A DNA stretch of 40,621 bases from a phage: the sequence record PX596819.2; one strand, 5' to 3'. Of this stretch, positions 1 to 40,497 are shown piece after piece. Numbering within the stretch: the stretch's first letter is position 1; the number at the start of each line of letters is the position of its first letter. The notes beneath the pieces were generated by a model. The model had not been told where the DNA came from and searched no databases. It was given only the letters and a program-made list of their open reading frames with translations. Both the position numbers and the translations under genes were made by a program.

Positions 1-180
1 AGAGACTCAGAGACAGACCCATAGTCCCAACCTATCGTCTCCACCACCACCGATAGTCATGACCTATCGTTGACCTGAAGTCTTGACAATCGGTCCAACC
101 TTATGATAGACTTGGGTATGGCCTTTGGTCCGGACTGAAAGAGGGACTATGGGGATACTTGAGGTTCTTGAACTGTGAGA
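1..180 (-). repeat. Terminal-repeat-like region (single copy in this window); minus-strand reading begins TCTCACAG and ends GAGTCTCT at window position 1
   Basis: Minus strand of 173-180 reads TCTCACAG, as at the start of the T7 terminal repeat; it lies just beyond gene 19.5 and is flanked by ACTGTAGG-type short repeats. Window start and end are not identical, so the repeat is present once. Confidence 0.4.
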
Positions 181-3083: not shown

Positions 3084-3143
3084 AGTTGCCCTCCCGGTTT
3101 ATCAGATTTTCACGTAGAGTCTCCTCCACTAGTTAGTGTTAAC

Positions 3144-3185
3144 CATAAAGGCCACTACACATAGTAATGACCTTGAGTCTAACAC
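3144..3185 (-). other. Conserved hairpin motif (copy 1 of 3), candidate RNase III processing site (R18.5-like position)
   Basis: Motif cat(a/g)aaggccac-N13-15-atgaccttgagtcta recurs three times; the transcript folds as an ~11 bp stem (AAGGUCAU.. / ..GUGGCCUU) with a 5 nt loop. Confidence 0.4.
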
Positions 3186-3449
3186 TTATTGAACTCCATA
3201 CCCTGTGTCATTATCTTCCGTAGCGGAGAGCACCTTATCGTACTCTGCGTTCAGGGCCTCCATATCAGCCAGCGTCTTCTCGTCCACAGACACCTTACTT
3301 AACACAAAGTTGTGACGAGCCAGTAGCTTCTCAATGGCGTTGTAAAGCTGAGGCGAACGCTTAGAGTCATCCCGCAGGTCTTGCAGCATGAGTCTAGCAC
3401 GTTCAGTATCTAGCATTAAGAGGAACTTCTCTAAGTCCATCTGCGTCAT
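3186..3449 (-). CDS. gp18: Terminase small subunit (DNA maturase A, gp18)
   Basis: 87 aa; size and position as T7 gp18 between the holin and Rz genes. Confidence 0.75.
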   Translation of the reverse strand: MTQMDLEKFLLMLDTERARLMLQDLRDDSKRSPQLYNAIEKLLARHNFVLSKVSVDEKTLADMEALNAEYDKVLSATEDNDTGYGVQ

Positions 3450-3640
3450 GTTTTACCACCTCCTTTAATCGTTTTGTAGACTAGCACACCAATCTGGACA
3501 ACGGTGTACGCGATAGCTGCAACGTAGAACCATTCGTTCAGTGTAAGTCCGAAGAAGAACCGACTGGCACCATCAGCCGCAGCGGTCCCGACGATAGGAG
3601 AGGCTTTAAGGACCTCATTCTTGAAGTCTAACTCAATCAT
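3446..3640 (-). CDS. gp17.5: Holin (gp17.5-like)
   Basis: 64 aa with a hydrophobic TM segment (WFYVAAIAYTVVQIGVLVY) and charged C-terminus; follows the tail fibre gene as in T7. Confidence 0.75.
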   Translation of the reverse strand: MIELDFKNEVLKASPIVGTAAADGASRFFFGLTLNEWFYVAAIAYTVVQIGVLVYKTIKGGGKT

Positions 3641-26744: not shown

Positions 26745-26765
26745 GGTTAATCCTCCGTTTAGTCT

Positions 26766-26806
26766 AATCATAAAGGCCACTCGATGTGAATGACCTTGAG
26801 TCTAGA
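26766..26806 (-). other. Conserved hairpin motif (copy 2 of 3), candidate RNase III site (R4.7-like position)
   Basis: Same motif as at 3144 and 34998; lies between genes 4 and 5. Confidence 0.4.
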
Positions 26807-28992: not shown

Positions 28993-29463
28993 TTAACCAC
29001 GGTCGGAAGTGACCAGTTCATTGGTAGACAGCCAGCGTTGCAAGTCGAAACTTGGGCACGCCTTAGGTGCTACGTCATGGTGTGCTTTGATTTCTGCCTG
29101 AGGATACAGGACCTTCAGGTCAGCCAGCTTGCTGCGCAGGGAGTTCATCTGGGCTGGAGTGAAGTTAGCTTCAAACTGACCCTTATCGTTGATTCCACCT
29201 ACAAGGCAGACGCCTACGGACTTGGAGTTCCAGTCCTTAACGTGTGACCCTACGACATTGACCGGGCGACCCTCTTCCACAGTACCATCTCGCTTGATGA
29301 TAAAGTGGTAGCCTGCGTCCAGCCATCCCTGCTGCTTGTGCCACATACGGATGGTATCTACCCCGATGTCCATCTCTGGCTTGGTAGCCGAACAGTGAAC
29401 GAAGATAGCGTCAGTTGACTTGCGTGGCATGAATTGTACTTTACTTCCCATTATTATTTCCAC
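28993..29463 (-). CDS. gp3.5: Lysozyme (N-acetylmuramoyl-L-alanine amidase; gp3.5-like, also the likely RNAP inhibitor)
   Basis: 156 aa; DAIFVHCSATKP, GYHFIIKRDGTVEEGR, GVCLVGGI, APKACPSFD, ending NELVTSDRG, all resembling T7 lysozyme. Confidence 0.93.
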   Translation of the reverse strand: MEIIMGSKVQFMPRKSTDAIFVHCSATKPEMDIGVDTIRMWHKQQGWLDAGYHFIIKRDGTVEEGRPVNVVGSHVKDWNSKSVGVCLVGGINDKGQFEANFTPAQMNSLRSKLADLKVLYPQAEIKAHHDVAPKACPSFDLQRWLSTNELVTSDRG

Positions 29464-29495: not shown

Positions 29496-29834
29496 CTAAC
29501 TTACTGAGTATTTTTCAGCCATAAACTTAAGGGTCTCGCTTGAGGTGCGAATATCCCTAACGTCCTCTTCAGTTAGTTTTAAATTAAATGTCCTACATAC
29601 TGAGCAGTCCATCATGTTTTCTTCCTGAGTCCCCAGCTCAAGGTGCTCAATGTTTACGCATGCACGGTTATCACACTTGTGTCTTACGACAAGACCTCCC
29701 GGTATAGCACCATTGGTCTCTATCCAAGCGGCTCGATGAGCACCCATAGATTGGCCACGGAATTTACGTCTACCATAGCCATTCTTATTGCGACTATTAG
29801 TCCACTCGATGCAGTCACTTTCCATTGTAAACAA
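29496..29834 (-). CDS. HNH endonuclease (free-standing)
   Basis: CIEW..NGYGRR..AHRAAWIETNGAIPGGLVVRHKCDNRACVNIEHLELGT is a typical phage HNH pattern; C-terminal LTEEDVRDIR segment. Confidence 0.8.
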   Translation of the reverse strand: MFTMESDCIEWTNSRNKNGYGRRKFRGQSMGAHRAAWIETNGAIPGGLVVRHKCDNRACVNIEHLELGTQEENMMDCSVCRTFNLKLTEEDVRDIRTSSETLKFMAEKYSVS

Positions 29835-30288: not shown

Positions 30289-30737
30289 TTAACTCCTTTC
30301 TTCTTGGGAATGAGTATACCTGAAGGCAGATGTACAGTCGCCTCTCGGAGCCACTCAACCGGGATGAACTTATCGGCATACTTAAAGCCGTTCTTTTCGC
30401 ACCATGCGCCATACGTGGTTGGAGACCCTTTGTATAACTTGGAGCGGGAACTTGAGAACACGAACCGAATGTCTAACTCAGGGTGCTGTTCTTTAATCAA
30501 TAAGTGCTTCTTACGGTCTTCCACTGCGAAGATTCCCTTGGTCTCCACAATGATGCCATTTGGTAGCACAAAGTCTGGACAATAGGTATGAAGGGATTGA
30601 GGGATTGTGTACGCTATTTTATACATCTCGTACTCAGCCTTAACCCCGTTCTTCTCCAGCCACTCTTGGTTTTTTGCTTCCAGTCCAGACCGATAGATTC
30701 CTACCGAGTGTCCCCTACTCATGCTACGTGTCGCCAT
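30285..30737 (-). CDS. gp3: Endonuclease I (Holliday junction resolvase, gp3)
   Basis: 150 aa; HTYCPDFVLPNGIIVETKG, DRKKHLLIKEQHPELDIRFVFSSSRSKLYKGSPTTYG resemble T7 gp3. Confidence 0.93.
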   Translation of the reverse strand: MATRSMSRGHSVGIYRSGLEAKNQEWLEKNGVKAEYEMYKIAYTIPQSLHTYCPDFVLPNGIIVETKGIFAVEDRKKHLLIKEQHPELDIRFVFSSSRSKLYKGSPTTYGAWCEKNGFKYADKFIPVEWLREATVHLPSGILIPKKKGVK

Positions 30738-31168
30738 GTTTCTCTCCTTAGTATCTTACCTATTGTTGGCTGAGACACTCCGTAGATTGTAGCGAGTTGT
30801 CGCTGAGTAAGGCTCGAAGACCTAATTTCCTTGACTTTAGTGTCAGTAAGTTTGGACATACCGCACTTCTCTCCCGGAACATGAGGAGGGTTTACACCGC
30901 GCCCCTTGTTACGCATGTCCTGAAGGTTATCCAATTGGGTCCCTACAGTAAGATGCTCAGGGTTACAACACAGCGGAGTATCACAGGTGTGTAACAGAAC
31001 GCCATTAGGTTCTTCACCTGTAATCAGCTCGTAGGCTACGCGATGTGCAAGCATGGTTTTTCCATTGTGCCTAATCTGACCGTAGCCTTTGTTGTTAACG
31101 CAGCCAGTGAAAAGCCAGCAGCTACCTGAAACCACAAGTCGCTGCTTAAGGCTTTCTACTGTAGCCAT
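30719..31168 (-). CDS. HNH endonuclease with C-terminal HTH (free-standing)
   Basis: CWLFTG..NKGYGQI..AHRVAYELITGEEPNGVLLHTCDTPLCCNPEHL; C-terminal LTQRQLATIYGVSQPTIGKI helix-turn-helix. Confidence 0.8.
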   Translation of the reverse strand: MATVESLKQRLVVSGSCWLFTGCVNNKGYGQIRHNGKTMLAHRVAYELITGEEPNGVLLHTCDTPLCCNPEHLTVGTQLDNLQDMRNKGRGVNPPHVPGEKCGMSKLTDTKVKEIRSSSLTQRQLATIYGVSQPTIGKILRRETWRHVA

Positions 31169-31906: not shown

Positions 31907-31929
31907 CTGTCCTACAGTGATAGTTTAGG
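31907..31929 (-). promoter_or_regulatory. Phage RNAP promoter variant (phi2.5-like) with CACTGTAGG
   Basis: Minus strand CCTAAACTATCACTGTAGGACAGACG upstream of gene 2.5. Confidence 0.5.
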
Positions 31930-32161
31930 TCTCAGGACGAATCCGTCCGACCACAAACCCAGCGTCCTCATACTCTTGGGACTTCAGGGTAGCCTCTTCA
32001 AGAGACTTTGCGTACACCGGAACCTCGAATGACTGAACGCGACCCTCAAGCTCAACGATGTATTTCTTTTCTACGTCAGTCATAGACCGCGCTCCTTCCA
32101 TTGGTTGTATAACGTAATGTAGTCCGGGTTGAGAGTCTTCTCGTACATCTCCCGGCACCAC
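31925..32161 (-). CDS. gp2: Host RNA polymerase inhibitor (Gp2-like)
   Basis: C-terminal part [14 protein letters not shown]...[13 protein letters not shown] resembles T7 Gp2 (SFEVPIYAETLDEA...AGFEVTRVRP); the true start is probably an internal Met. Confidence 0.6.
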
Positions 32162-33074: not shown

Positions 33075-33536
33075 TTATAATGAATCCCTTAAGGCTACTG
33101 CCTCGGCTATGGTATCGAACGTACCGTATGACTTACGCTTTATCCGCAGTTGCCAGCGACCAGTTGATTTCTGGTATTGAACGTATTTCTCTCCAGATTG
33201 GCAGTGACTACGGGTTGGAACGTTAGTTAGGTTCACCGCCTGAGTCACACACCTGAGGTTCTCAATCCTGTTATCCGAAGGGTCCCGGTTGATATGGTCA
33301 ATCACCATCCCTTCTGGTATAGGACCGTGGGTTAGTTCCCAGACTACTCGGTGGGCCAGCAGTTGGCCCTTTGTCGTACTTAGAATCCAGTACCCATCCT
33401 TTCGTCTATAACCAAGATGTCTACCGTTTAGGTTTGAGACTCCAGAGGGAGCCGCCCTGTCTGCTTTAAATCTTGACCGTAGGGTCGTCCTCAGTTCCAC
33501 GCCACTGGTCGAACGAGGGATGCCGTAGTAAGCCAC
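33075..33536 (-). CDS. HNH endonuclease with AP2-like C-terminal domain (free-standing)
   Basis: AHRVVWELTHGPIPEGMVIDHINRDPSDNRIENLRCVT; C-terminus GRWQLRIKRKSYGTFDTIAEA. The start overlaps the ligase 3' end by about 70 nt, so the true start may be downstream. Confidence 0.75.
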   Translation of the reverse strand: MAYYGIPRSTSGVELRTTLRSRFKADRAAPSGVSNLNGRHLGYRRKDGYWILSTTKGQLLAHRVVWELTHGPIPEGMVIDHINRDPSDNRIENLRCVTQAVNLTNVPTRSHCQSGEKYVQYQKSTGRWQLRIKRKSYGTFDTIAEAVALRDSL

Positions 33537-34781: not shown

Positions 34782-35009
34782 TTATGCTCCTACTAAGTAT
34801 TTTTCTCGGTTTACCAGAGAGTCTTTACCTTCAGCGTTACGGAAAGCACCCTTGACACCACCGCCGCGCTTGGTCTTGTTCAGCTTGCGGCCCTTCGGAA
34901 TGTAATATTCAGTCTTCTGACGTTCACGGATGCGCTCGAAGTTGATAGTGTTCTGATACATGTGGTTAAATCTCCAGTAGTTTACGTTAGGATTAATCAT
35001 GAAGGCCAC
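34782..35009 (-). CDS. gp1.1: gp1.1-like small basic protein
   Basis: Contains KGRKLNKTKR as in T7 gp1.1; the track ORF starts at GTG and the true start is probably an internal ATG. Confidence 0.5.
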   Translation of the reverse strand: MAFMINPNVNYWRFNHMYQNTINFERIRERQKTEYYIPKGRKLNKTKRGGGVKGAFRNAEGKDSLVNREKYLVGA

Positions 35010-35035
35010 GACTTTGAGTCATGACCTTGAGTCTA
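34998..35035 (-). other. Conserved hairpin motif (copy 3 of 3) at the 5' end of the phi1.1 transcript, candidate RNase III site (R1.1-like)
   Basis: Minus strand UAGACUCAAGGUCAUGACUCAAAGUCGUGGCCUUCAUG: 11 bp stem with two G-U pairs and a 5 nt loop, immediately downstream of the promoter. Confidence 0.45.
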
Positions 35036-35055
35036 ATCCTATAGTGATAGTTTAG
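35033..35055 (-). promoter_or_regulatory. Phage RNAP promoter (phi1.1-like)
   Basis: Minus strand CCCTAAACTATCACTATAGGATTAGACTC; first phage promoter downstream of gene 1, as in T7. Confidence 0.65.
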
Positions 35056-35131
35056 GGTTAACCTCTTCTGCGTTGGACTAAAATGAATACTGCGAGTGTT
35101 CCCAGCCACAAGGCCAGCAACTGTAGGTCTG

Positions 35132-35362
35132 TCATTTGGTTGCCTCTTCCCGTAGGGCCTTCTCGTGTGACCACTGTATTACCTGAATCAGCTCCTTCTG
35201 GCTGATACATTTGGCCTTAGCCGTTCCAGTCGGTACCATAGTCACCTTGACCAGACCTTTACCCGCCACTGTGGTTACGGTAACTACCTTGTTGCCACCA
35301 GATACGTTTGATACACGGTGTGCGAATTGCATGTTGTCTCTCCTGTTGTTAAGCGAATGCAA
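35132..35362 (-). CDS. Hypothetical small protein between gene 1 and the phi1.1 promoter (gene 1.05-like position)
   Basis: 76 aa ORF with TTG start overlapping the RNAP stop by 14 nt; an internal ATG (MQFAHRV..) is also possible. Weak. Confidence 0.3.
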   Translation of the reverse strand: MHSLNNRRDNMQFAHRVSNVSGGNKVVTVTTVAGKGLVKVTMVPTGTAKAKCISQKELIQVIQWSHEKALREEATK

Positions 35363-38030
35363 AGTCTGAAGACAAGATGTCTTCGATATTCAGTTTACCT
35401 TTCTTCGGAAGCTCAGGCAACTTGTCGCGCTGGCTCTCGTGAAGCTGGTACTCGAACTGCTCGTAGAAGTCGAGCAGCACATCGTTGTCGCGGTAGGTCT
35501 CGACCATCGTCTCACGGACACCACGGAACAGATACTCAGCATCAGCAGGAATGGTCCCGAAGCTATCGTGAATAACTGCGAATGACATCACACCATACTT
35601 GCGGTGAGTGTGGACTACAGTCTTGCGGAGGTGGCTGCCATCTTGTGAGTGAACGAAGTTCGGGCTAATGCCTGACTCCTGCTTGTGCTTGTCCAGCTCT
35701 TTCTTCGTGCCTTTATTGACTGTAGGTTGAAGGTTAAATGACCCTAAGAACATCAGGTTCAGACGCGTGGTATCCTTCTTGCGGTATTCCTGCCAGACCG
35801 GGAAACCATCAGGTGTTACCCAGTGTACCGGAAGGCAAGGCTTCAGGATTTCACCAGTTTTCTTGTCCTTCACCTCAGCAGCCAGCAGCTTGGCAGCACC
35901 TTGAAGCCACTTCATCGCGTCTACCGCAGCAACCACGGTCACACTCACAGCCTCCCAGATCATCTTAGCCATGAAGCGAGACGCTTGTCTTGGTTCAGTG
36001 AACATAGCGCCAGACCCTGAGTCAATCGCGGGCATCACGATGTCCTCGTACACTTGGTCTGCGAAGCCATACTCTTTCGACCCGTAGGCCAGAGTCATGA
36101 CCGAACGCTTAGTGACCTTGCGTGACATGCCGTAGGTCAGCCACTGACGGGCCAGCTCTCGTGTCCCCAGCTTGAGACGTTCGGTAATCTCACCAGTTTT
36201 CTTGTCCTCGTGAGTCACCATCTCGTTGTCCGTACCGTTAACCAGCAGGACTTTAAGCTCCTCCTCAATGCGGTCAGACACAATGCGGTAGATGTCTTGG
36301 ACCTTACCGGATGGAGTTAGGTTTACTGCATGTCCACCGATGTGGTCACGAAGCATCGCGCTGAAGTGCTGAATACCAGAGCAGGACCCGTCGAACGCTA
36401 TTGGCAGCGAACATGAGTAAGACAGTCCGTGGTGCATTACGCCAGCATACTCGAAGCAGAACGCTAGGAAGCAGAACGGAGAGTCTAACTTGCCCCACCA
36501 CTCAATGCTATCCATCGGTGCTTTGGCAGCAGCCATGATGTTGTCGTGGTTGTCTTCCACCCACTTGATGCGCTCCTCGAAGGTGACTTTATCGACACCC
36601 GCACAGTTTGCACCGTGGACCTTCAGCCATTTGAAACCATCAGCACCAATAGGCTTACCGACTGCCAGAGTCAGTAGACCCTTCTGCATGTCGTTACCCT
36701 GAGGGTTGAACATCGGCACAGCGTAGACGCGACCGCGCCAGTCCATGTTGTACGGGAACCAGATGGCCTTGAACTGAGAGAACTTGTTCGCTTGGTTGAC
36801 GATAAAGCTCAATGATAATCTGCGTGACTGTCTGGCCTTCTCGCGGCGATAGATGCCAGCAGCAGCCTTCTTCCACGCCTTGAGGTCCTCTTCAGTCTCT
36901 CCCACATAGTCTTCAGGCTTCAGTGGTTCCATCTGAGGGATGTCGTCAATAGGCGTGTTGTTCAGCTTCTCGACCATGTTCACTACGTCCAGCACCTTCT
37001 TGTTCACTTTCCAAGGTGTATTCTGGATGATGTTCACAGCGTCATAGACTTCAGGCATGTACACGTCTTCGTAACGTGCTACCGCAGACTTAGACCCTAA
37101 GCGAATCAATGGTAACGGTCTGCGACCTTTGGCCCAGTAACCACCGCCTACGACACCCGTCCACGGCTTAGGTGGAACGACGCACGGTTGGTAGACTGGC
37201 GCGATACCTGCAAGGCTGAAGCCACGTTGCGCCATCTTCTTGACCCAGAAGTCTGACAGGTGGACCATCTCAACATCAGCCGCTGCATTGCCAGCACCAT
37301 AACGCTTAAGCTCGACCAGTTGTGTAGACTGTATGACAATCTCAAGCATCTTGATGCCGACGTGTACCGCTTCTGTAGGACTCCAAGTACCCCACGCATC
37401 TTCCAGTTGGCCTTGCTCCAGCATGGAGGTCTCAACCGCTTGCATGTAGGCTTTCTTGTAGGATACCCCTGCTCGCTTGTTCAGGTTCTCAGCAATCGCC
37501 TTCTTGAAGTGCTCCTGCTCCTTATCACGGATGCGGCCGAAGCGGATTTCATCTTCCAGTGTGCGACCTATCGCGGATGCCATAGGAGTTATCGGAATGC
37601 CTTCAGGCTTGACCAGCTTGCTGAGGATGACTTTCAGTATGATGATCGCAGCAGACTCCGCAGAGATTAGCAGAGAGCGGTCTTTTACAGCCTTCTCGTC
37701 AGTGCTCAGCATGGTAAACGCTACGCTTGGACGCGAGGTCGATGACTTACCGTCCGGGCCTTCATGCCACTCACGGAAAGCCTTAGCGATGGTCGGAACC
37801 AGCGTTTGCATCAAAGGTTTGGCGACCTGATTGTCTGCCAGTTCCCCTCGCTCGGTCTGGCGCTCAAGGTTCTTGATGAAACGTCGCTCGCCTTCAGTGT
37901 ATGCCTCATGCTCAAGCTGAAGCTGTTTGACTGCAAGGTCTTGCCCGTAGTGGTTGGCCAGCAGGTTAAACGGCTCAATGGCGTTCGACACATCAGAGAA
38001 GTCGTGTTTGTCAATAGAGATGACGCTCAT
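35349..38030 (-). CDS. gp1: Single-subunit DNA-directed RNA polymerase (T7 gp1-like)
   Basis: 893 aa vs 883 in T7; ends ..DFAFA like T7 RNAP; AAGGA 8 nt upstream of the ATG. Confidence 0.97.
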   Translation of the reverse strand: MSVISIDKHDFSDVSNAIEPFNLLANHYGQDLAVKQLQLEHEAYTEGERRFIKNLERQTERGELADNQVAKPLMQTLVPTIAKAFREWHEGPDGKSSTSRPSVAFTMLSTDEKAVKDRSLLISAESAAIIILKVILSKLVKPEGIPITPMASAIGRTLEDEIRFGRIRDKEQEHFKKAIAENLNKRAGVSYKKAYMQAVETSMLEQGQLEDAWGTWSPTEAVHVGIKMLEIVIQSTQLVELKRYGAGNAAADVEMVHLSDFWVKKMAQRGFSLAGIAPVYQPCVVPPKPWTGVVGGGYWAKGRRPLPLIRLGSKSAVARYEDVYMPEVYDAVNIIQNTPWKVNKKVLDVVNMVEKLNNTPIDDIPQMEPLKPEDYVGETEEDLKAWKKAAAGIYRREKARQSRRLSLSFIVNQANKFSQFKAIWFPYNMDWRGRVYAVPMFNPQGNDMQKGLLTLAVGKPIGADGFKWLKVHGANCAGVDKVTFEERIKWVEDNHDNIMAAAKAPMDSIEWWGKLDSPFCFLAFCFEYAGVMHHGLSYSCSLPIAFDGSCSGIQHFSAMLRDHIGGHAVNLTPSGKVQDIYRIVSDRIEEELKVLLVNGTDNEMVTHEDKKTGEITERLKLGTRELARQWLTYGMSRKVTKRSVMTLAYGSKEYGFADQVYEDIVMPAIDSGSGAMFTEPRQASRFMAKMIWEAVSVTVVAAVDAMKWLQGAAKLLAAEVKDKKTGEILKPCLPVHWVTPDGFPVWQEYRKKDTTRLNLMFLGSFNLQPTVNKGTKKELDKHKQESGISPNFVHSQDGSHLRKTVVHTHRKYGVMSFAVIHDSFGTIPADAEYLFRGVRETMVETYRDNDVLLDFYEQFEYQLHESQRDKLPELPKKGKLNIEDILSSDFAFA

Positions 38031-38099
38031 ACTTAAAGTCCTTGTTATTAGTCTTTCACTTAAAGTCTCTTTGTTCTTTCACTTGGAGTCTTAGACCTT

Positions 38100-38122
38100 G
38101 AGTCCTATAGTGATAGTTAAGT
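38100..38122 (-). promoter_or_regulatory. Phage-RNAP-type promoter directly upstream of the RNAP gene
   Basis: Minus strand CTTAACTATCACTATAGGACTCAAGGTC, a full match to the consensus core, placed between the last early ORF and gene 1 and oriented into gene 1. Confidence 0.55.
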
Positions 38123-38127
38123 CAGAA

Positions 38128-38520
38128 TTACTTGCATATCAGCTGGTTAGCGTGGAGATGACTGAAGTCACCGTGAGTCGTGTGCTTGATGGTTGACCGT
38201 TGGTCTATCGCCTTCCAGCCTGAGACCAGAAGTTTACCATCGTCGGTGATTGGTCGTCCACCATACGCCAGACACATCTGCTCGGACTTATGGCCCTCGG
38301 CCAGGAGTCGTGCTTGCAGAACCCGGTCGCGCTCCTGCTGTTGACGTGCGGTATGTGACGAGTGGCGATGAACATAAGCGGTCTTGTTCCCTGTCTTCTC
38401 CCAGTAGTTGCGACCGCGAGGGTCCGTGCCGACGTACTTCCACTCTACGCCGTTCTTATCAGTGAATGTGTGAAGCGATGTGATTGAGTCCATTGCATGT
38501 ACCAGATTTGCCATATTCAT
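38128..38520 (-). CDS. Hypothetical early protein (130 aa), His-rich, immediately upstream of RNAP
   Basis: Start overlaps the upstream ORF stop (TAATG); no motif I recognise. Confidence 0.5.
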   Translation of the reverse strand: MNMANLVHAMDSITSLHTFTDKNGVEWKYVGTDPRGRNYWEKTGNKTAYVHRHSSHTARQQQERDRVLQARLLAEGHKSEQMCLAYGGRPITDDGKLLVSGWKAIDQRSTIKHTTHGDFSHLHANQLICK

Positions 38521-38723
38521 TACAGTTTACTCCCAAGAGTTGCTATATCCCAGACGTTCGCTAAGTTGCGCATGAATCGTCCGTTAGGTTGACGCACAGT
38601 CCAGCGACCCAGACGTACATAGTTGAATTTGTAGACTTTACGCGCTTTGTGGATGTCTTTCACCAGCACGTAGGCGATAAGTCCATAGCCTATGGCTATC
38701 AATAGTGCAAGACTCATAGTCAT
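38520..38723 (-). CDS. Small early membrane protein (67 aa, N-terminal TM then basic tail)
   Basis: MTMSLALLIAIGYGLIAYVLV then KDIHKARKVYKF..; ATG overlaps the upstream mini-ORF stop (ATGA). The track shows a 106-aa TTG-initiated extension that I consider less likely. Confidence 0.45.
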   Translation of the reverse strand: MTMSLALLIAIGYGLIAYVLVKDIHKARKVYKFNYVRLGRWTVRQPNGRFMRNLANVWDIATLGSKL

Positions 38724-38824
38724 AAACCCCAGAACAGTTGAGTAAGGACAGGAAGTTTGCCGACTAGAGTAAACATTCCCCACGCTACGAAGCCTGAGAT
38801 AGTCCAGATGATTGCAGTGTTCAT
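38720..38824 (-). CDS. Mini-ORF encoding a 34-aa hydrophobic peptide (MNTAIIWTISGFVAWGMFTLVGKLPVLTQLFWGL)
   Basis: GGAG 7 nt upstream of the ATG; stop overlaps the next start; single TM-like segment. Below the ORF-track size cut-off. Confidence 0.35.
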   Translation of the reverse strand: MNTAIIWTISGFVAWGMFTLVGKLPVLTQLFWGL

Positions 38825-38899
38825 AGTTAACTCCTATCAATGCAAGTGGTAATCTTTGAGGCCACCTGTCAGTTAGATGACCTCTCGTCTATCACTCTC

Positions 38900-39271
38900 C
38901 TACACTTCTACCGCGACGGTTGTCATCTTGGTTACAGTAAGTCCACCAGCCAGCTCAACTGCATAGCGTATCGCCTCGTCTTTGGACCTGAAATCTTTAC
39001 CAGCAAGGTGGTAAATGTCGCCGTTTATTACTTTGGCTGGCTTGCGGCTAACTGCTATAGCGTTGCTAAGGGAAAGCTCACCCTTCGACCACTGAGAGTG
39101 CCAGCGGCATACGCTCTTAGGAGATACGTTGAAGTCACTGGCCACCTTCGCAAGCATAGAGTCAAGTCTAGAAGAGCTACATTGAGGCTGGCGCACCAAG
39201 TCGTATGCCTTTGCTACTCGTATTTTAAAATCTACCGTGTAGCTGTTGCGGCTTTTAGTAGTTGTGTTCAT
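38900..39271 (-). CDS. Early helix-turn-helix DNA-binding protein (IS3-type transposase HTH-like N-terminus)
   Basis: YTVDFKIRVAKAYDL...LAKVASDFNVSPKSVCRWHSQW matches the pattern I associate with HTH_Tnp_1-type domains; no transposase catalytic ORF follows. Confidence 0.45.
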   Translation of the reverse strand: MNTTTKSRNSYTVDFKIRVAKAYDLVRQPQCSSSRLDSMLAKVASDFNVSPKSVCRWHSQWSKGELSLSNAIAVSRKPAKVINGDIYHLAGKDFRSKDEAIRYAVELAGGLTVTKMTTVAVEV

Positions 39272-39494: not shown

Positions 39495-40012
39495 CTTGAT
39501 GACCTCACCTCTTGCAGCTTGGAAACAAGGAAGAAGCAGTCCACCAGTATCAGCTTACCATTAATAGCCCGTACATTTCGTGGGCTTATCTCAAATTGAA
39601 TGTCTGACCCGAAGTTAGCGCAAGCATCCAGCGCCATCAGCACATCCATCAGACCTTCCCGCACAGTCTCAGTATCAGACCTGTCGTGTGCAGCTTGGAA
39701 TATCTCGTACCACCTGTGATACAGTTCAGCAGGTCTAGAGAATACAGGAGACCGTGAGAAGCAATCCCGCAGCACCTGATAGAGTTGCCACTGGTCATCA
39801 TCTAAATGCGCTTTGAGACCTCGTGTTGGTGGTATGTAGTCCATCTCATACGTGCCTACCTCAATCATCTTGACTTCAGGGAACAGTGGAGACTCAGGGA
39901 ACCATCCCCACGCCATACACTCCTTTATCGGGTCAGAAGAGACCAGAAGAACACGCTTCCCGCAATCCTTCAGGTAGCACTTAGTGAACGCGCCTTTGCC
40001 TATCAGTTTCAT
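39488..40012 (-). CDS. First early gene: gp0.7-like protein kinase domain protein (174 aa), lacking a shutoff-domain extension
   Basis: Gly-rich loop KLIGKGAFTKCY, then FGSDIQFEISPRNVRAINGKLILVDCFF, resembling the T7 gp0.7 kinase-domain segments LGNGHFSAAY and [25 protein letters not shown] as I recall them; AGGA 8 nt upstream of the ATG. Confidence 0.4.
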   Translation of the reverse strand: MKLIGKGAFTKCYLKDCGKRVLLVSSDPIKECMAWGWFPESPLFPEVKMIEVGTYEMDYIPPTRGLKAHLDDDQWQLYQVLRDCFSRSPVFSRPAELYHRWYEIFQAAHDRSDTETVREGLMDVLMALDACANFGSDIQFEISPRNVRAINGKLILVDCFFLVSKLQEVRSSRW

Positions 40013-40209
40013 GTTGTTTATCCTATAGTTAGTGACTATCAGTCAGGGCCTTCAGATGTAGACTCAAAGACCCTGTAGTTAATCACTATCGCTAGCAAGC
40101 TAGCTATCGGCGCACATTAAGAGTTTATCCAGATTGTTAAAGAGCACTCCCTTCAGTCAGAGGACTTCAGGTAGACCATTTCAGTGTTGGTCATCACCAT
40201 TGTTTCGAT

Positions 40210-40246
40210 GTGGTGCATACTACTTTAAGTCGGTACATCTTGTCAA
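40210..40246 (-). promoter_or_regulatory. Candidate host sigma70 early promoter (TTGACA-18 nt-TAGTAT)
   Basis: Minus strand TTGACAAGATGTACCGACTTAAAGTAGTAT about 200 nt upstream of the first early gene; perfect -35, good -10. Confidence 0.4.
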
Positions 40247-40497
40247 CTGCTTTCTGTCATCTGCCTGTTGTTCGTATGACTTATCAGGCTGTCTACTTAA
40301 CCGTGATGACCCGGCGTCTTCACTATCCGGTTGTTGCCGTGTCGTGTTGACGGAAGCTATTAGGCCATAGTCTAGACCTATAGTCAATAGGTAATTTGAA
40401 TTAATATCAATTAAGCTATCGTCGGCCCCATAGTGACTAAGAGGATATAGTCTTTGACTAAGATGTCTTCGACCTTAAGTCTATAGCTTTGTGTTTA

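What the first reader, a model, noticed from the sequence alone, without database searches (positions are those of the whole stretch)
38031..38127. Phage-type promoter placed directly in front of the phage RNAP gene (possible positive autoregulation)
In T7 gene 1 is transcribed only by host RNAP from the early promoters; the first phage promoters lie after gene 1. Here a sequence matching the genome promoter consensus core (CTTAACTATCACTATAGGA) sits about 75 nt upstream of the RNAP ATG and is oriented into it. If functional, it would let the phage RNAP amplify its own transcription. The leader also contains a duplicated AAGTGAAAGA element and the half-motif GACTCAAGGTC shared with the conserved hairpin family.
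Basis: seen in the sequence. Interest (0 to 1): 0.55.

Follow-up and report, generated by a model that had tools for sequence, protein, structure and literature searches.

The report
Phage promoter before its own polymerase
This T7-like coliphage (genus Kayfunavirus) has a real, strongly conserved promoter for its own RNA polymerase right in front of the polymerase gene, so the enzyme can very probably boost its own production; relatives' database records already annotate the site and the idea has been described for other phages.

Summary
The window is a Kayfunavirus (K1F/EcoDS1 group) coded on the − strand. A perfect copy of the genome's phage-promoter consensus lies at 38122..38100 (−). Its +1 G is at 38105, 75 nt before the ATG of gene 1 (RNAP, 35349..38030). 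It is one of 11 copies, all on the − strand (0.02 expected by chance). It scores 32.8 bits leave-one-out, rank 6 of 11; the best non-promoter site scores 12.8 bits.

All 21 close relatives fetched through the RNAP protein carry a phage promoter at this position, as do 219 GenBank records. The T7-, T3- and K11-like loci sampled do not; they have an RNase III hairpin there. The site also co-varies with the polymerase. GW1-like phages have a T3-type specificity loop and ACCCTC promoters. CR8 has its own loop and AGGTAC promoters. In each lineage the pre-gene-1 site carries that phage's own hexamer.

It is therefore almost certainly a working phage promoter. Self-amplification of gene 1 is a sound inference but is untested. 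It is not new: EcoDS1, CR8 and CR44b records annotate the site, and LUZ100 and φA318 papers propose the same loop. Interest is low to moderate.

The parts
38100..38122 (-). Phage RNAP promoter, positions −17..+6: ACTTAACTATCACTATAGGACTC (K1F specificity class, −12..−7 = ACTATC)
   Evidence: Perfect match to the 19-mer consensus. Leave-one-out PWM score 32.8 bits, rank 6 of 11; the next-best non-promoter site in the genome scores 12.8 bits. The orthologous site is annotated 'promoter, phi' in EcoDS1.
38105..38105 (-). Predicted transcription start (+1 G of TATAGGA)
   Evidence: Placed by analogy with T7-group promoters, where +1 is the first G after TATA (established knowledge). The sequence is shown.
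38031..38105 (-). 75-nt A-rich, unstructured 5' leader of gene 1
   Evidence: GC 0.36 against 0.49 for the window, 65% purine. MFE −14.2 kcal/mol, z = +1.47, with 187 of 200 shuffles folding at least as well. No Rfam match. Near-identical in relatives.
38094..38104 (-). GACTCAAGGTC, the orphan 5' arm of the RNase III-type hairpin family, at +2..+12 of the transcript
   Evidence: Full hairpins occupy the same position in T7-, T3- and K11-like phages.
38052..38091 (-). Two copies of a 17-nt imperfect direct repeat AGACTyyAAGTGAAAGA (38075-38091 and 38052-38068), which contain the AAGTGAAAGA duplication
   Evidence: Conserved in the main Kayfunavirus group but not in sub-clade B or CR8.
38039..38043 (-). 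Shine-Dalgarno-like AAGGA, 8 nt before the ATG
   Evidence: Read directly from the sequence. Invariant in all Kayfunavirus leaders aligned.
35349..38030 (-). Gene 1, single-subunit phage RNA polymerase (893 aa)
   Evidence: Pfam RNA_pol and RPOL_N. The specificity loop is identical to those of K1F and EcoDS1.
38128..38520 (-). gp0.38 homologue (130 aa, unknown function). Its stop codon ends 5 nt before promoter position −17.
   Evidence: phrog_7066, 2.3e-43. EcoDS1 annotation.
35034..35056 (-). Next phage promoter, after gene 1 (counterpart of T7 φ1.1), followed by an RNase III-type hairpin at about 35039..34990
   Evidence: Hairpin −23.6 kcal/mol, z = −4.18.
40100..40400 (-). Host (σ70) early-promoter region that must prime the first gene 1 transcripts
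   Evidence: Homology to EcoDS1 positions 282-639 and 859-962, which carry annotated host RNAP promoters. TTGACA-18-TAGTAT at 40246..40217.

Best explanation
The element is a genuine promoter for the phage's own single-subunit RNA polymerase, placed in the leader of the polymerase gene itself. The proposed sequence of events is as follows. After infection, host RNAP starts at the σ70 early promoters near the left end. It reads through genes 0.3 to 0.38 into gene 1 and so makes the first polymerase molecules. Those molecules then recognise the promoter at 38122..38100 (−) and start at G 38105. They produce a transcript whose first cistron is gene 1, behind a 75-nt unstructured, A-rich leader with an AAGGA ribosome-binding site. 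The transcript continues into the downstream class II genes. Gene 1 is therefore expressed as both an early (host-dependent) and a middle (self-dependent) gene. This forms a positive feedback loop that keeps RNAP mRNA coming after gp2 silences the host enzyme. The loop is presumably capped, as in T7, by the lysozyme gp3.5 homologue binding the phage RNAP. What is shown: the sequence, its rank among the genome's promoters, its position, its conservation, its co-variation with the RNAP specificity loop, the lack of any intervening terminator or structure, and the presence of host promoters, gp2 and gp3.5. What is inferred: actual initiation at 38105, the size of the feedback, and the role of gp3.5 as brake.
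For: There are 11 consensus copies, all co-oriented with the genes, against 0.02 expected. The site scores 32.8 bits leave-one-out, mid-rank, with a 20-bit gap to the background. Like the other promoters it sits at a gene-proximal distance: its leader is 75 nt, and 9 of the other 10 fall between 30 and 109 nt. Among relatives fetched through the RNAP protein, not through the promoter, 21 of 21 close loci (78-98% RNAP identity) have a phage promoter with its +1 between 75 and 102 nt before the gene 1 ATG. None of the roughly 55 T7-, T3- or K11-like loci has one within 300 nt. In all 20 testable loci the −11..−7 bases equal those of that phage's own downstream promoters, across three specificity classes: ACTATC, ACCCTC and AGGTAC. 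The RNAP specificity loops differ accordingly. The loops are RLNLMFLGSFNLQPT, RLDLMFLGTFRLQPT (T3-type D and R residues) and RIKLMFMG-VQYRPT. In GW1-like phages the flanks stay homologous and only the promoter bases changed. 219 GenBank phage records carry the promoter-leader module. EcoDS1 annotates it 'promoter, phi', and CR8 and CR44b annotate a 'promoter'. The leader is unstructured and no terminator-like site lies between promoter and ATG. A T7 RNAP carrying the K1F specificity loop was active on the K1F-subfamily consensus promoter (PMC3458549). gp2 and an Amidase_2 gp3.5 homologue are present. In LUZ100 the same architecture was mapped by ONT-cappable-seq and modelled as positive feedback (PMC10134795).
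Against: No 5'-end mapping, in vitro transcription or mutant data were found for any Kayfunavirus, so initiation and its quantitative effect are inferred. The initially transcribed sequence is GGACTC rather than the GGGAGA of the strongest T7-type promoters, which suggests a middle-class promoter of moderate strength (established T7 knowledge). One sub-clade has −2 A (CACTAAAGGA) at this site only, possibly a weakened variant. Conservation shows that the promoter is used. It does not show that boosting gene 1 is the selected function rather than feeding downstream genes or priming replication.
Confidence: 0.8

Rival explanations
1. The promoter is functional, but its selected role is not autoregulation. 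It would be the left-most entry point for phage RNAP: the first class II promoter feeding genes 1.1 to 2.5, and/or a replication or priming promoter like T7 φOL and φ1.1A/B. Extra gene 1 mRNA would be an incidental by-product.
For: The window has no φOL analogue. The only PWM sites above 12 bits are the 11 promoters, and none lies between the terminal repeat and 38122, so this is the left-most phage promoter of the mature genome. It is followed by a 64% A+T stretch, as T7 origin promoters are (established knowledge). Phage RNAP transcripts would continue past gene 1 into downstream genes.
Against: A second consensus promoter sits directly after gene 1 (35056..35034) and can serve the downstream genes without 2.7 kb of extra transcript. 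The promoter-to-ATG spacing, the ribosome-binding site and the unstructured leader are those of a gene-proximal promoter and are conserved with gene 1. Whatever the selected role, any transcript from 38105 necessarily carries gene 1 as its first cistron, so feedback follows. No origin features were demonstrated.
Confidence: 0.14
2. The site is a chance or decayed promoter-like sequence with no activity in vivo.
For: Nothing positive supports this. The only point in its favour is that no experimental data exist for this genus.
Against: The site is a perfect consensus match with 0.02 matches expected. It is present in 21 of 21 close relatives and 219 GenBank records. Its specificity bases switched in step with the RNAP specificity loop in two further lineages, which is very hard to explain without selection for recognition.
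Confidence: 0.03
3. The site is a host (σ70) RNAP promoter, as labelled in the PE3-1 GenBank record.
For: The PE3-1 record annotates the orthologous 23 bp as 'host RNAP promoter'.
Against: The σ70 scan finds no −35/−10 pair in 38031-38127. The annotated 23-bp interval is exactly the phage consensus. EcoDS1 labels the same site 'phi' and places its host promoters about 1.5 kb upstream.
Confidence: 0.02

Closest known systems
Annotated φ promoter upstream of gene 1 in Escherichia phage EcoDS1 (EU734172, 2244-2266), with equivalents in Citrobacter phages CR8 and CR44b and in phage Sparklingdew
   Same: This is the orthologous site. It has the same 23-bp sequence (GACTTAACTATCACTATAGGACTC), the same position straight after gp0.38, the same leader, and 93% identity across the region. 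The published genus consensus CTWAACTATCACTATAGG includes a copy at the 3' end of the gene before the RNAP gene (PMC13298934).
   Different: There is no structural difference. Those records only label a predicted promoter. No accessible text discusses autoregulation, co-variation with the RNAP loop, or loss of the RNase III site.
Pseudomonas phage LUZ100 promoter φ1 directly upstream of its RNAP gene (PMC10134795)
   Same: A phage-specific promoter sits immediately upstream of the phage RNAP gene. Priming is by host RNAP from an upstream promoter, followed by self-amplification.
   Different: LUZ100 is a distant, temperate-like Autographiviridae phage. Its φ1 was mapped experimentally and is proposed to be gated by a MarR-like repressor as part of a lysis/lysogeny switch. 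The Kayfunavirus window shows no repressor or integrase near the site, and initiation is unmapped.
Vibrio phage φA318 promoter upstream of the kinase and RNAP genes (PMC4099482)
   Same: A predicted phage promoter lies upstream of the RNAP gene, and the authors read it as autoregulation.
   Different: That promoter precedes a kinase-RNAP pair and belongs to a different lineage with a different consensus. It is prediction only.
T7 φOL (left-end phage promoter) and the synthetic 'T7 autogene'
   Same: φOL is a phage promoter upstream of, and co-oriented with, gene 1. It is seen here in T7-like L033 at −2746. The T7 autogene (Dubendorff & Studier 1991, cited from my own knowledge) places gene 1 directly behind a T7 promoter, which is the same circuit as here.
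   Different: φOL lies about 2.7 kb away, upstream of the host promoters, and is regarded as a replication-associated promoter. The autogene is man-made and needs lysozyme or lac repression to be tolerated. Here the direct arrangement is natural and fixed in a whole genus.
T7 R1 RNase III processing site upstream of gene 1
   Same: It occupies the same genomic slot between the last early gene and gene 1. The Kayfunavirus leader begins with the 5' arm motif ACTCAAGG, as in the T3-like R1 hairpin.
   Different: No hairpin forms in this window. T7-, T3- and K11-like phages have the hairpin and no promoter. CR8 has both the promoter and a 9-bp hairpin.

Membership tests
T7-group single-subunit RNAP promoter (K1F specificity class) | A conserved sequence of about 23 bp (−17..+6) matching the genome's own repeated promoter consensus | tested here: met
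   0 mismatches to the 19-mer, with 11 copies against 0.02 expected. Leave-one-out score 32.8 bits against 12.8 for the best background site.
T7-group single-subunit RNAP promoter (K1F specificity class) | The common T7-family core CACTATAG, with initiation at G (+1) followed by G (+2) | tested here: met
   The sequence TCACTATAGGA is seen directly.
T7-group single-subunit RNAP promoter (K1F specificity class) | A specificity region (−12..−8) matched to the cognate RNAP's specificity loop | tested here: met
   The window's loop is identical to that of K1F. Three loop types pair with three hexamers, and the pre-gene-1 site follows its own phage in 20 of 20 loci. The K1F loop with its consensus promoter was active in a chimeric T7 RNAP (PMC3458549); the literal promoter sequence could not be checked.
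T7-group single-subunit RNAP promoter (K1F specificity class) | Co-oriented with the genes and placed a short leader's distance upstream of a gene start | tested here: met
   The leader is 75 nt; 9 of the other 10 promoters have leaders of 30 to 109 nt.
T7-group single-subunit RNAP promoter (K1F specificity class) | Specific initiation by the phage RNAP in vitro or in vivo | not testable with these tools
   This needs run-off transcription or 5'-end mapping. No such data were found for the genus.
Self-amplifying phage RNAP circuit (LUZ100 φ1 / T7-autogene type) | A cognate promoter upstream of and co-oriented with the RNAP gene, with no intervening terminator | tested here: met
   Promoter, leader and ATG are contiguous. 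No terminator-like site lies in 38031-38127 and the leader is unstructured.
Self-amplifying phage RNAP circuit (LUZ100 φ1 / T7-autogene type) | An independent priming route for the first RNAP molecules (host promoters upstream, with read-through into gene 1) | tested here: inconclusive
   A host-promoter region was identified by homology to EcoDS1's annotated σ70 promoters, plus one strong σ70 match at 40246..40217. The only terminator-like hit on the − strand between there and gene 1 is a weak one at 39768..39748, and total hits are at the chance level. Read-through was not demonstrated.
Self-amplifying phage RNAP circuit (LUZ100 φ1 / T7-autogene type) | RNAP mRNA or protein accumulation depends on the phage RNAP itself | not testable with these tools
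   This requires infection time courses with rifampicin or with a promoter mutant.
T7-type RNase III processing site (R1 position) | A long interrupted hairpin of the GACTCAAGGTCAT…GTGGCCTTTATGATTA type | tested here: not met
   Only the 5' arm is present. The leader folds worse than its shuffles (z = +1.47). Full hairpins occur elsewhere in the window (z = −4.18) and at this position in the outgroups.
σ70 host promoter (PE3-1 annotation) | −35 and −10 hexamers with 16-18 bp spacing | tested here: not met
   No σ70-like site lies in 38031-38127.
T7 φOL / primary-origin type replication promoter | A phage promoter followed by an A+T-rich segment that serves as a replication start | tested here: inconclusive
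   The leader is 64% A+T against 51% for the genome. It is also a translated-gene leader, and no origin-specific feature could be tested.

The most novel reading that the evidence does not exclude
In the Kayfunavirus/Caroctavirus lineage, the ancestral RNase III site in front of gene 1 was overwritten by an auto-promoter. This would turn RNAP synthesis into a self-amplifying commitment switch. The switch would make expression of the key enzyme independent of host RNAP after the first few molecules. That could explain why these phages do without a φOL promoter, and in Kayfunavirus without the gp0.7 host shut-off kinase, and why they tolerate a highly variable early-gene cargo. The −2A variant in one sub-clade would then be a tuned-down version of the switch.
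Probability: 0.15. Interest if true: 0.45.

Novelty: already known. Interest (0 to 1): 0.28.

Why it matters
The feature shows that direct self-transcription of a phage RNA polymerase gene is a stable, genus-wide natural design, although in the laboratory the same circuit (the T7 autogene) is hard to tolerate. The three-way co-variation of this one site with the polymerase's specificity loop is a clean natural example of promoter-polymerase co-evolution. It gives strong indirect proof that the site is used. In practice, Kayfunavirus phages are widely isolated for therapy (219 GenBank records here), and K1F polymerase/promoter parts are used in synthetic biology. Knowing that gene 1 is both an early and a self-driven middle gene matters for models of infection timing and for engineering these phages. 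It does not open a new field: the site is already annotated and the autoregulation idea is already published for other phages.

Tried and rejected
(1) I tried to read the K1F genome paper (Scholl & Merril 2005) and Chen & Schneider 2005, to see whether the site was discussed. Neither is held. Whether the K1F paper already comments on it is therefore unknown.
(2) I looked for transcriptome or TSS data for K1F or Kayfunavirus and found none that was relevant.
(3) I tried to confirm the literal PK1F sequence in the Temme et al. supplement, which is not held.
(4) Rfam scans of the window and of the leader gave no match.
(5) I looked for the T7 class II pause or termination signal ATCTGTT downstream of the promoter. 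There are 3 sites in the genome against 6.5 expected, one of them inside gene 1 at 35527-35533. This is not significant and I dropped it.
(6) I tested whether the long early transcript could form an RNase III hairpin across the promoter. No convincing stem appeared.
(7) I asked whether the AAGTGAAAGA duplication is a specific element. It is only weakly above chance as a 10-mer and is not conserved in sub-clade B or CR8. The related GACTTTAAG-type words are enriched genome-wide, so I treat it as leader composition or a local duplication, not a defined operator.
(8) Pfam searches on gp0.38 and its neighbours found nothing that suggests a regulator acting on the site.
(9) I looked for an early terminator after the ligase gene. 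None is obvious in 33290-33480, and I make no claim about it.

Full report
**What the window is.** Megablast of 37700-38900 finds 221 phage records, nearly all Kayfunavirus (the K1F/EcoDS1 group of T7-like podophages). The best match is EcoDS1 at 93% identity. All long ORFs are on the − strand. The ORF 35349..38030 (−, 893 aa) is the single-subunit RNA polymerase, with Pfam RNA_pol at 1.6e-106 plus RPOL_N. The assembly is circularly permuted relative to EcoDS1. The terminal repeat maps to window 1-180, and the host-promoter region maps to about 40100-40400 on the − strand.

**Checking the observation.** In gene orientation the interval reads: stop codon of gp0.38 (TAA, 38130-38128), then ttctg, then ACTTAACTATCACTATAGGACTC, then the leader, then ATG at 38030.
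- The 19-mer CTTAACTATCACTATAGGA has 11 matches at ≤3 mismatches, all on the − strand, against 0.02 expected. The copy at 38121..38103 is one of two perfect ones.
- With +1 at the first G after TATA, as in T7, the start is 38105 and the leader is 75 nt.
- A weight matrix built from the other ten promoters scores this site at 32.8 bits, rank 6 of 11. Apart from the eleven promoters, the best site on either strand scores 12.8 bits.
- AAGTGAAAGA is duplicated exactly at 38052-38061 and 38075-38084, inside a 17-nt imperfect repeat.
- GACTCAAGGTC is at 38094-38104.

**Is the promoter used? Comparative evidence.** I fetched relatives through the RNAP protein, so the sample is not biased towards having the promoter. 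This gave 80 IMG/VR loci in three tiers: 78-98%, 62-63% and 58-59% RNAP identity.
- All 21 close loci with upstream sequence have a T7-family promoter core whose +1 lies 75-102 nt before the gene 1 ATG.
- None of the roughly 55 T7-, T3- or K11-like loci has one within 300 nt. The same scan does find their promoters just after gene 1.
- A 111-nt query covering promoter and leader finds 219 GenBank records, all with at least 80% coverage.

The decisive point is co-variation.
- Most Kayfunavirus genomes use ACTATC at −12..−7.
- Two loci close to Cronobacter phage GW1 (88% RNAP identity) use ACCCTC at all their promoters.
- Citrobacter phage CR8 (genus Caroctavirus, 78%) uses AGGTAC.

In each case the pre-gene-1 site carries that phage's own hexamer, in 20 of 20 testable loci. 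The RNAP specificity loops differ in parallel. The three loops are RLNLMFLGSFNLQPT, RLDLMFLGTFRLQPT (the T3-type D and R residues, matching a T3-like ACCCTC promoter) and RIKLMFMG-VQYRPT. In the GW1-like loci the flanking 3' end of gp0.38 and the leader remain homologous to the window, and only the promoter's upstream bases changed. A site that tracks the polymerase's recognition specificity through two switches is being recognised by that polymerase.

**Anatomy and likely mechanism.**
- The promoter starts 5 nt after the stop codon of gp0.38 (phrog_7066, unknown function).
- The 75-nt leader is 64% A+T and 65% purine.
- It folds no better than shuffled sequence (z = +1.47).
- It ends in AAGGA, 8 nt before the ATG.
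- No σ70-like or terminator-like site lies in the interval, and there is no Rfam match.
- The geometry matches that of the genome's other promoters: 9 of the other 10 have leaders of 30-109 nt, each in front of a gene.

Host promoters lie about 2 kb upstream, by homology to EcoDS1's annotated sites plus a TTGACA-18-TAGTAT match. The most likely sequence of events is therefore this. Host RNAP makes the first gene 1 mRNA as part of the early operon. The new phage RNAP then initiates at 38105, transcribes its own gene as first cistron, and continues downstream. The phage also encodes a gp2-type inhibitor of host RNAP (31925..32161) and a gp3.5-type amidase (28993..29463). In T7 these shut off host transcription and restrain the phage RNAP respectively (established knowledge). 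That would make a self-driven supply of gene 1 mRNA useful and also bounded. Initiation, the gain of the loop and the brake are all inferred, not shown.

**The 'half-motif'.** The GACTCAAGGTC family forms strong hairpins of the form GACTCAAGGTCAT…GTGGCCTTTATGATTA near 3180, 26800 and 35030 (z = −4.18 for the copy after gene 1). From my own knowledge, these closely resemble T7 R1.1-type RNase III substrates. In T7-, T3- and K11-like loci a hairpin of this kind sits exactly where Kayfunavirus has the promoter; this is the R1 site of T7. CR8 has the promoter plus a 9-bp hairpin in its longer leader. The Kayfunavirus leader keeps only the 5' arm. One reasonable scenario, which is inference only: a promoter was gained upstream of R1 in the common ancestor of Kayfunavirus and Caroctavirus, and the hairpin then decayed in Kayfunavirus.

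**Comparison with what is known.** The site is already annotated.
- EcoDS1 (EU734172) has 'promoter, phi' at 2244-2266, before gene 1 at 2336.
- CR8 has a 'predicted promoter' at 3356-3378, before gene 1 at 3460.
- CR44b has a 'promoter' under the same match.
- PE3-1 annotates the same 23 bp but calls it a host promoter, which the sequence does not support.
- A 2026 genome paper gives the genus consensus CTWAACTATCACTATAGG and lists a copy at the 3' end of the gene preceding the RNAP gene (PMC13298934).

The concept is also published. In LUZ100 a phage-specific promoter directly upstream of the RNAP gene was mapped by ONT-cappable-seq and modelled as a positive feedback loop (PMC10134795). For φA318 a predicted promoter upstream of the kinase and RNAP genes was read as autoregulation (PMC4099482). 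A T7 RNAP carrying the K1F specificity loop transcribes from the K1F-subfamily consensus promoter (PMC3458549).

T7-like genomes have a consensus phage promoter (φOL) upstream of gene 1 in the same orientation, seen at −2746 in L033 and similarly in other loci. What is distinctive here is a promoter inside the gene-1 leader, together with the absence of any φOL analogue in this window.

**Verdict.** The feature is real and almost certainly functional as a phage promoter. Positive autoregulation is the natural consequence but is untested. I could not read the K1F genome paper, so I cannot say whether it was discussed there. I file it as already known, at the level of annotation and of concept. 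The modest additions made here are: universality in the clade, absence in the T7/T3/K11 clades, three-way co-variation with the specificity loop, and replacement of the R1 hairpin. Interest is low to moderate.

Noticed in passing
L041 (about 2495 nt upstream of gene 1), also L043-L083 (K11-like loci), e.g. L057 at −2554 and L061 at −2319: K11-like phages carry a second promoter-like site, GATAACTATCACTATAGGTCTACA, 57 nt after their left-end φOL-type promoter. Its −12..−7 hexamer, ACTATC, is the K1F-class hexamer, not the K11-class GGTAGC used by their other promoters.
   Followed up: no
L012, L013, L014, L019, L022 (81 nt before gene 1): One Kayfunavirus sub-clade has CACTAAAGGA (A at −2) at the pre-gene-1 promoter only, while its downstream promoters keep CACTATAGGA. 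Its leader is also longer and diverged, at 81 nt. This may be a tuned-down auto-promoter.
   Followed up: partly
window ~3130-3180, ~26760-26805, ~34990-35039 (− strand): A family of strong hairpins of the form GACTCAAGGTCAT…GTGGCCTTTATGATTA resembles T7 R1.1-type RNase III processing sites. One sits directly after the promoter that follows gene 1 (z = −4.18).
   Followed up: partly
L033, L038, L041 (130 nt before gene 1); L084 3378-3460: T7-, T3- and K11-like phages have an R1-type hairpin where Kayfunavirus has the promoter. CR8 has both the promoter and a 9-bp perfect hairpin (CTTAAGGTC…GACCTTAAG) in its leader.
   Followed up: partly
window 1-180 and 757-779 (− strand): The assembly is permuted, and the terminal repeat maps to window 1-180. 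A φOR-type promoter lies about 580 nt before it. No φOL analogue exists between the repeat and gene 1, so the pre-gene-1 promoter is the left-most phage promoter of the mature genome.
   Followed up: partly
window 30719-31168 (−) and 29496-29834 (−): Two HNH endonuclease ORFs, probably homing endonucleases, are inserted among the class II genes, near the SSB (gp2.5), endonuclease I and lysozyme genes.
   Followed up: no
window 38900-39271 (−): A 123-aa early-region ORF with a weak, sub-threshold HTH_23 match has no counterpart in EcoDS1. The early region between gene 0.35 and gene 0.6 is variable cargo.
   Followed up: no
L002 (KJ748011 PE3-1) 2874-2896: The GenBank record labels the phage-consensus promoter before gene 1 as 'host RNAP promoter', which is probably a mis-annotation.
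   Followed up: yes
window, genome-wide: GACTTTAAG-like 9-mers (≤1 mismatch) are enriched, 35 against 9.8 expected, and lie mostly on the coding strand. Two exact copies are in the gene-1 leader, one of them between the ribosome-binding site and the ATG.
   Followed up: no
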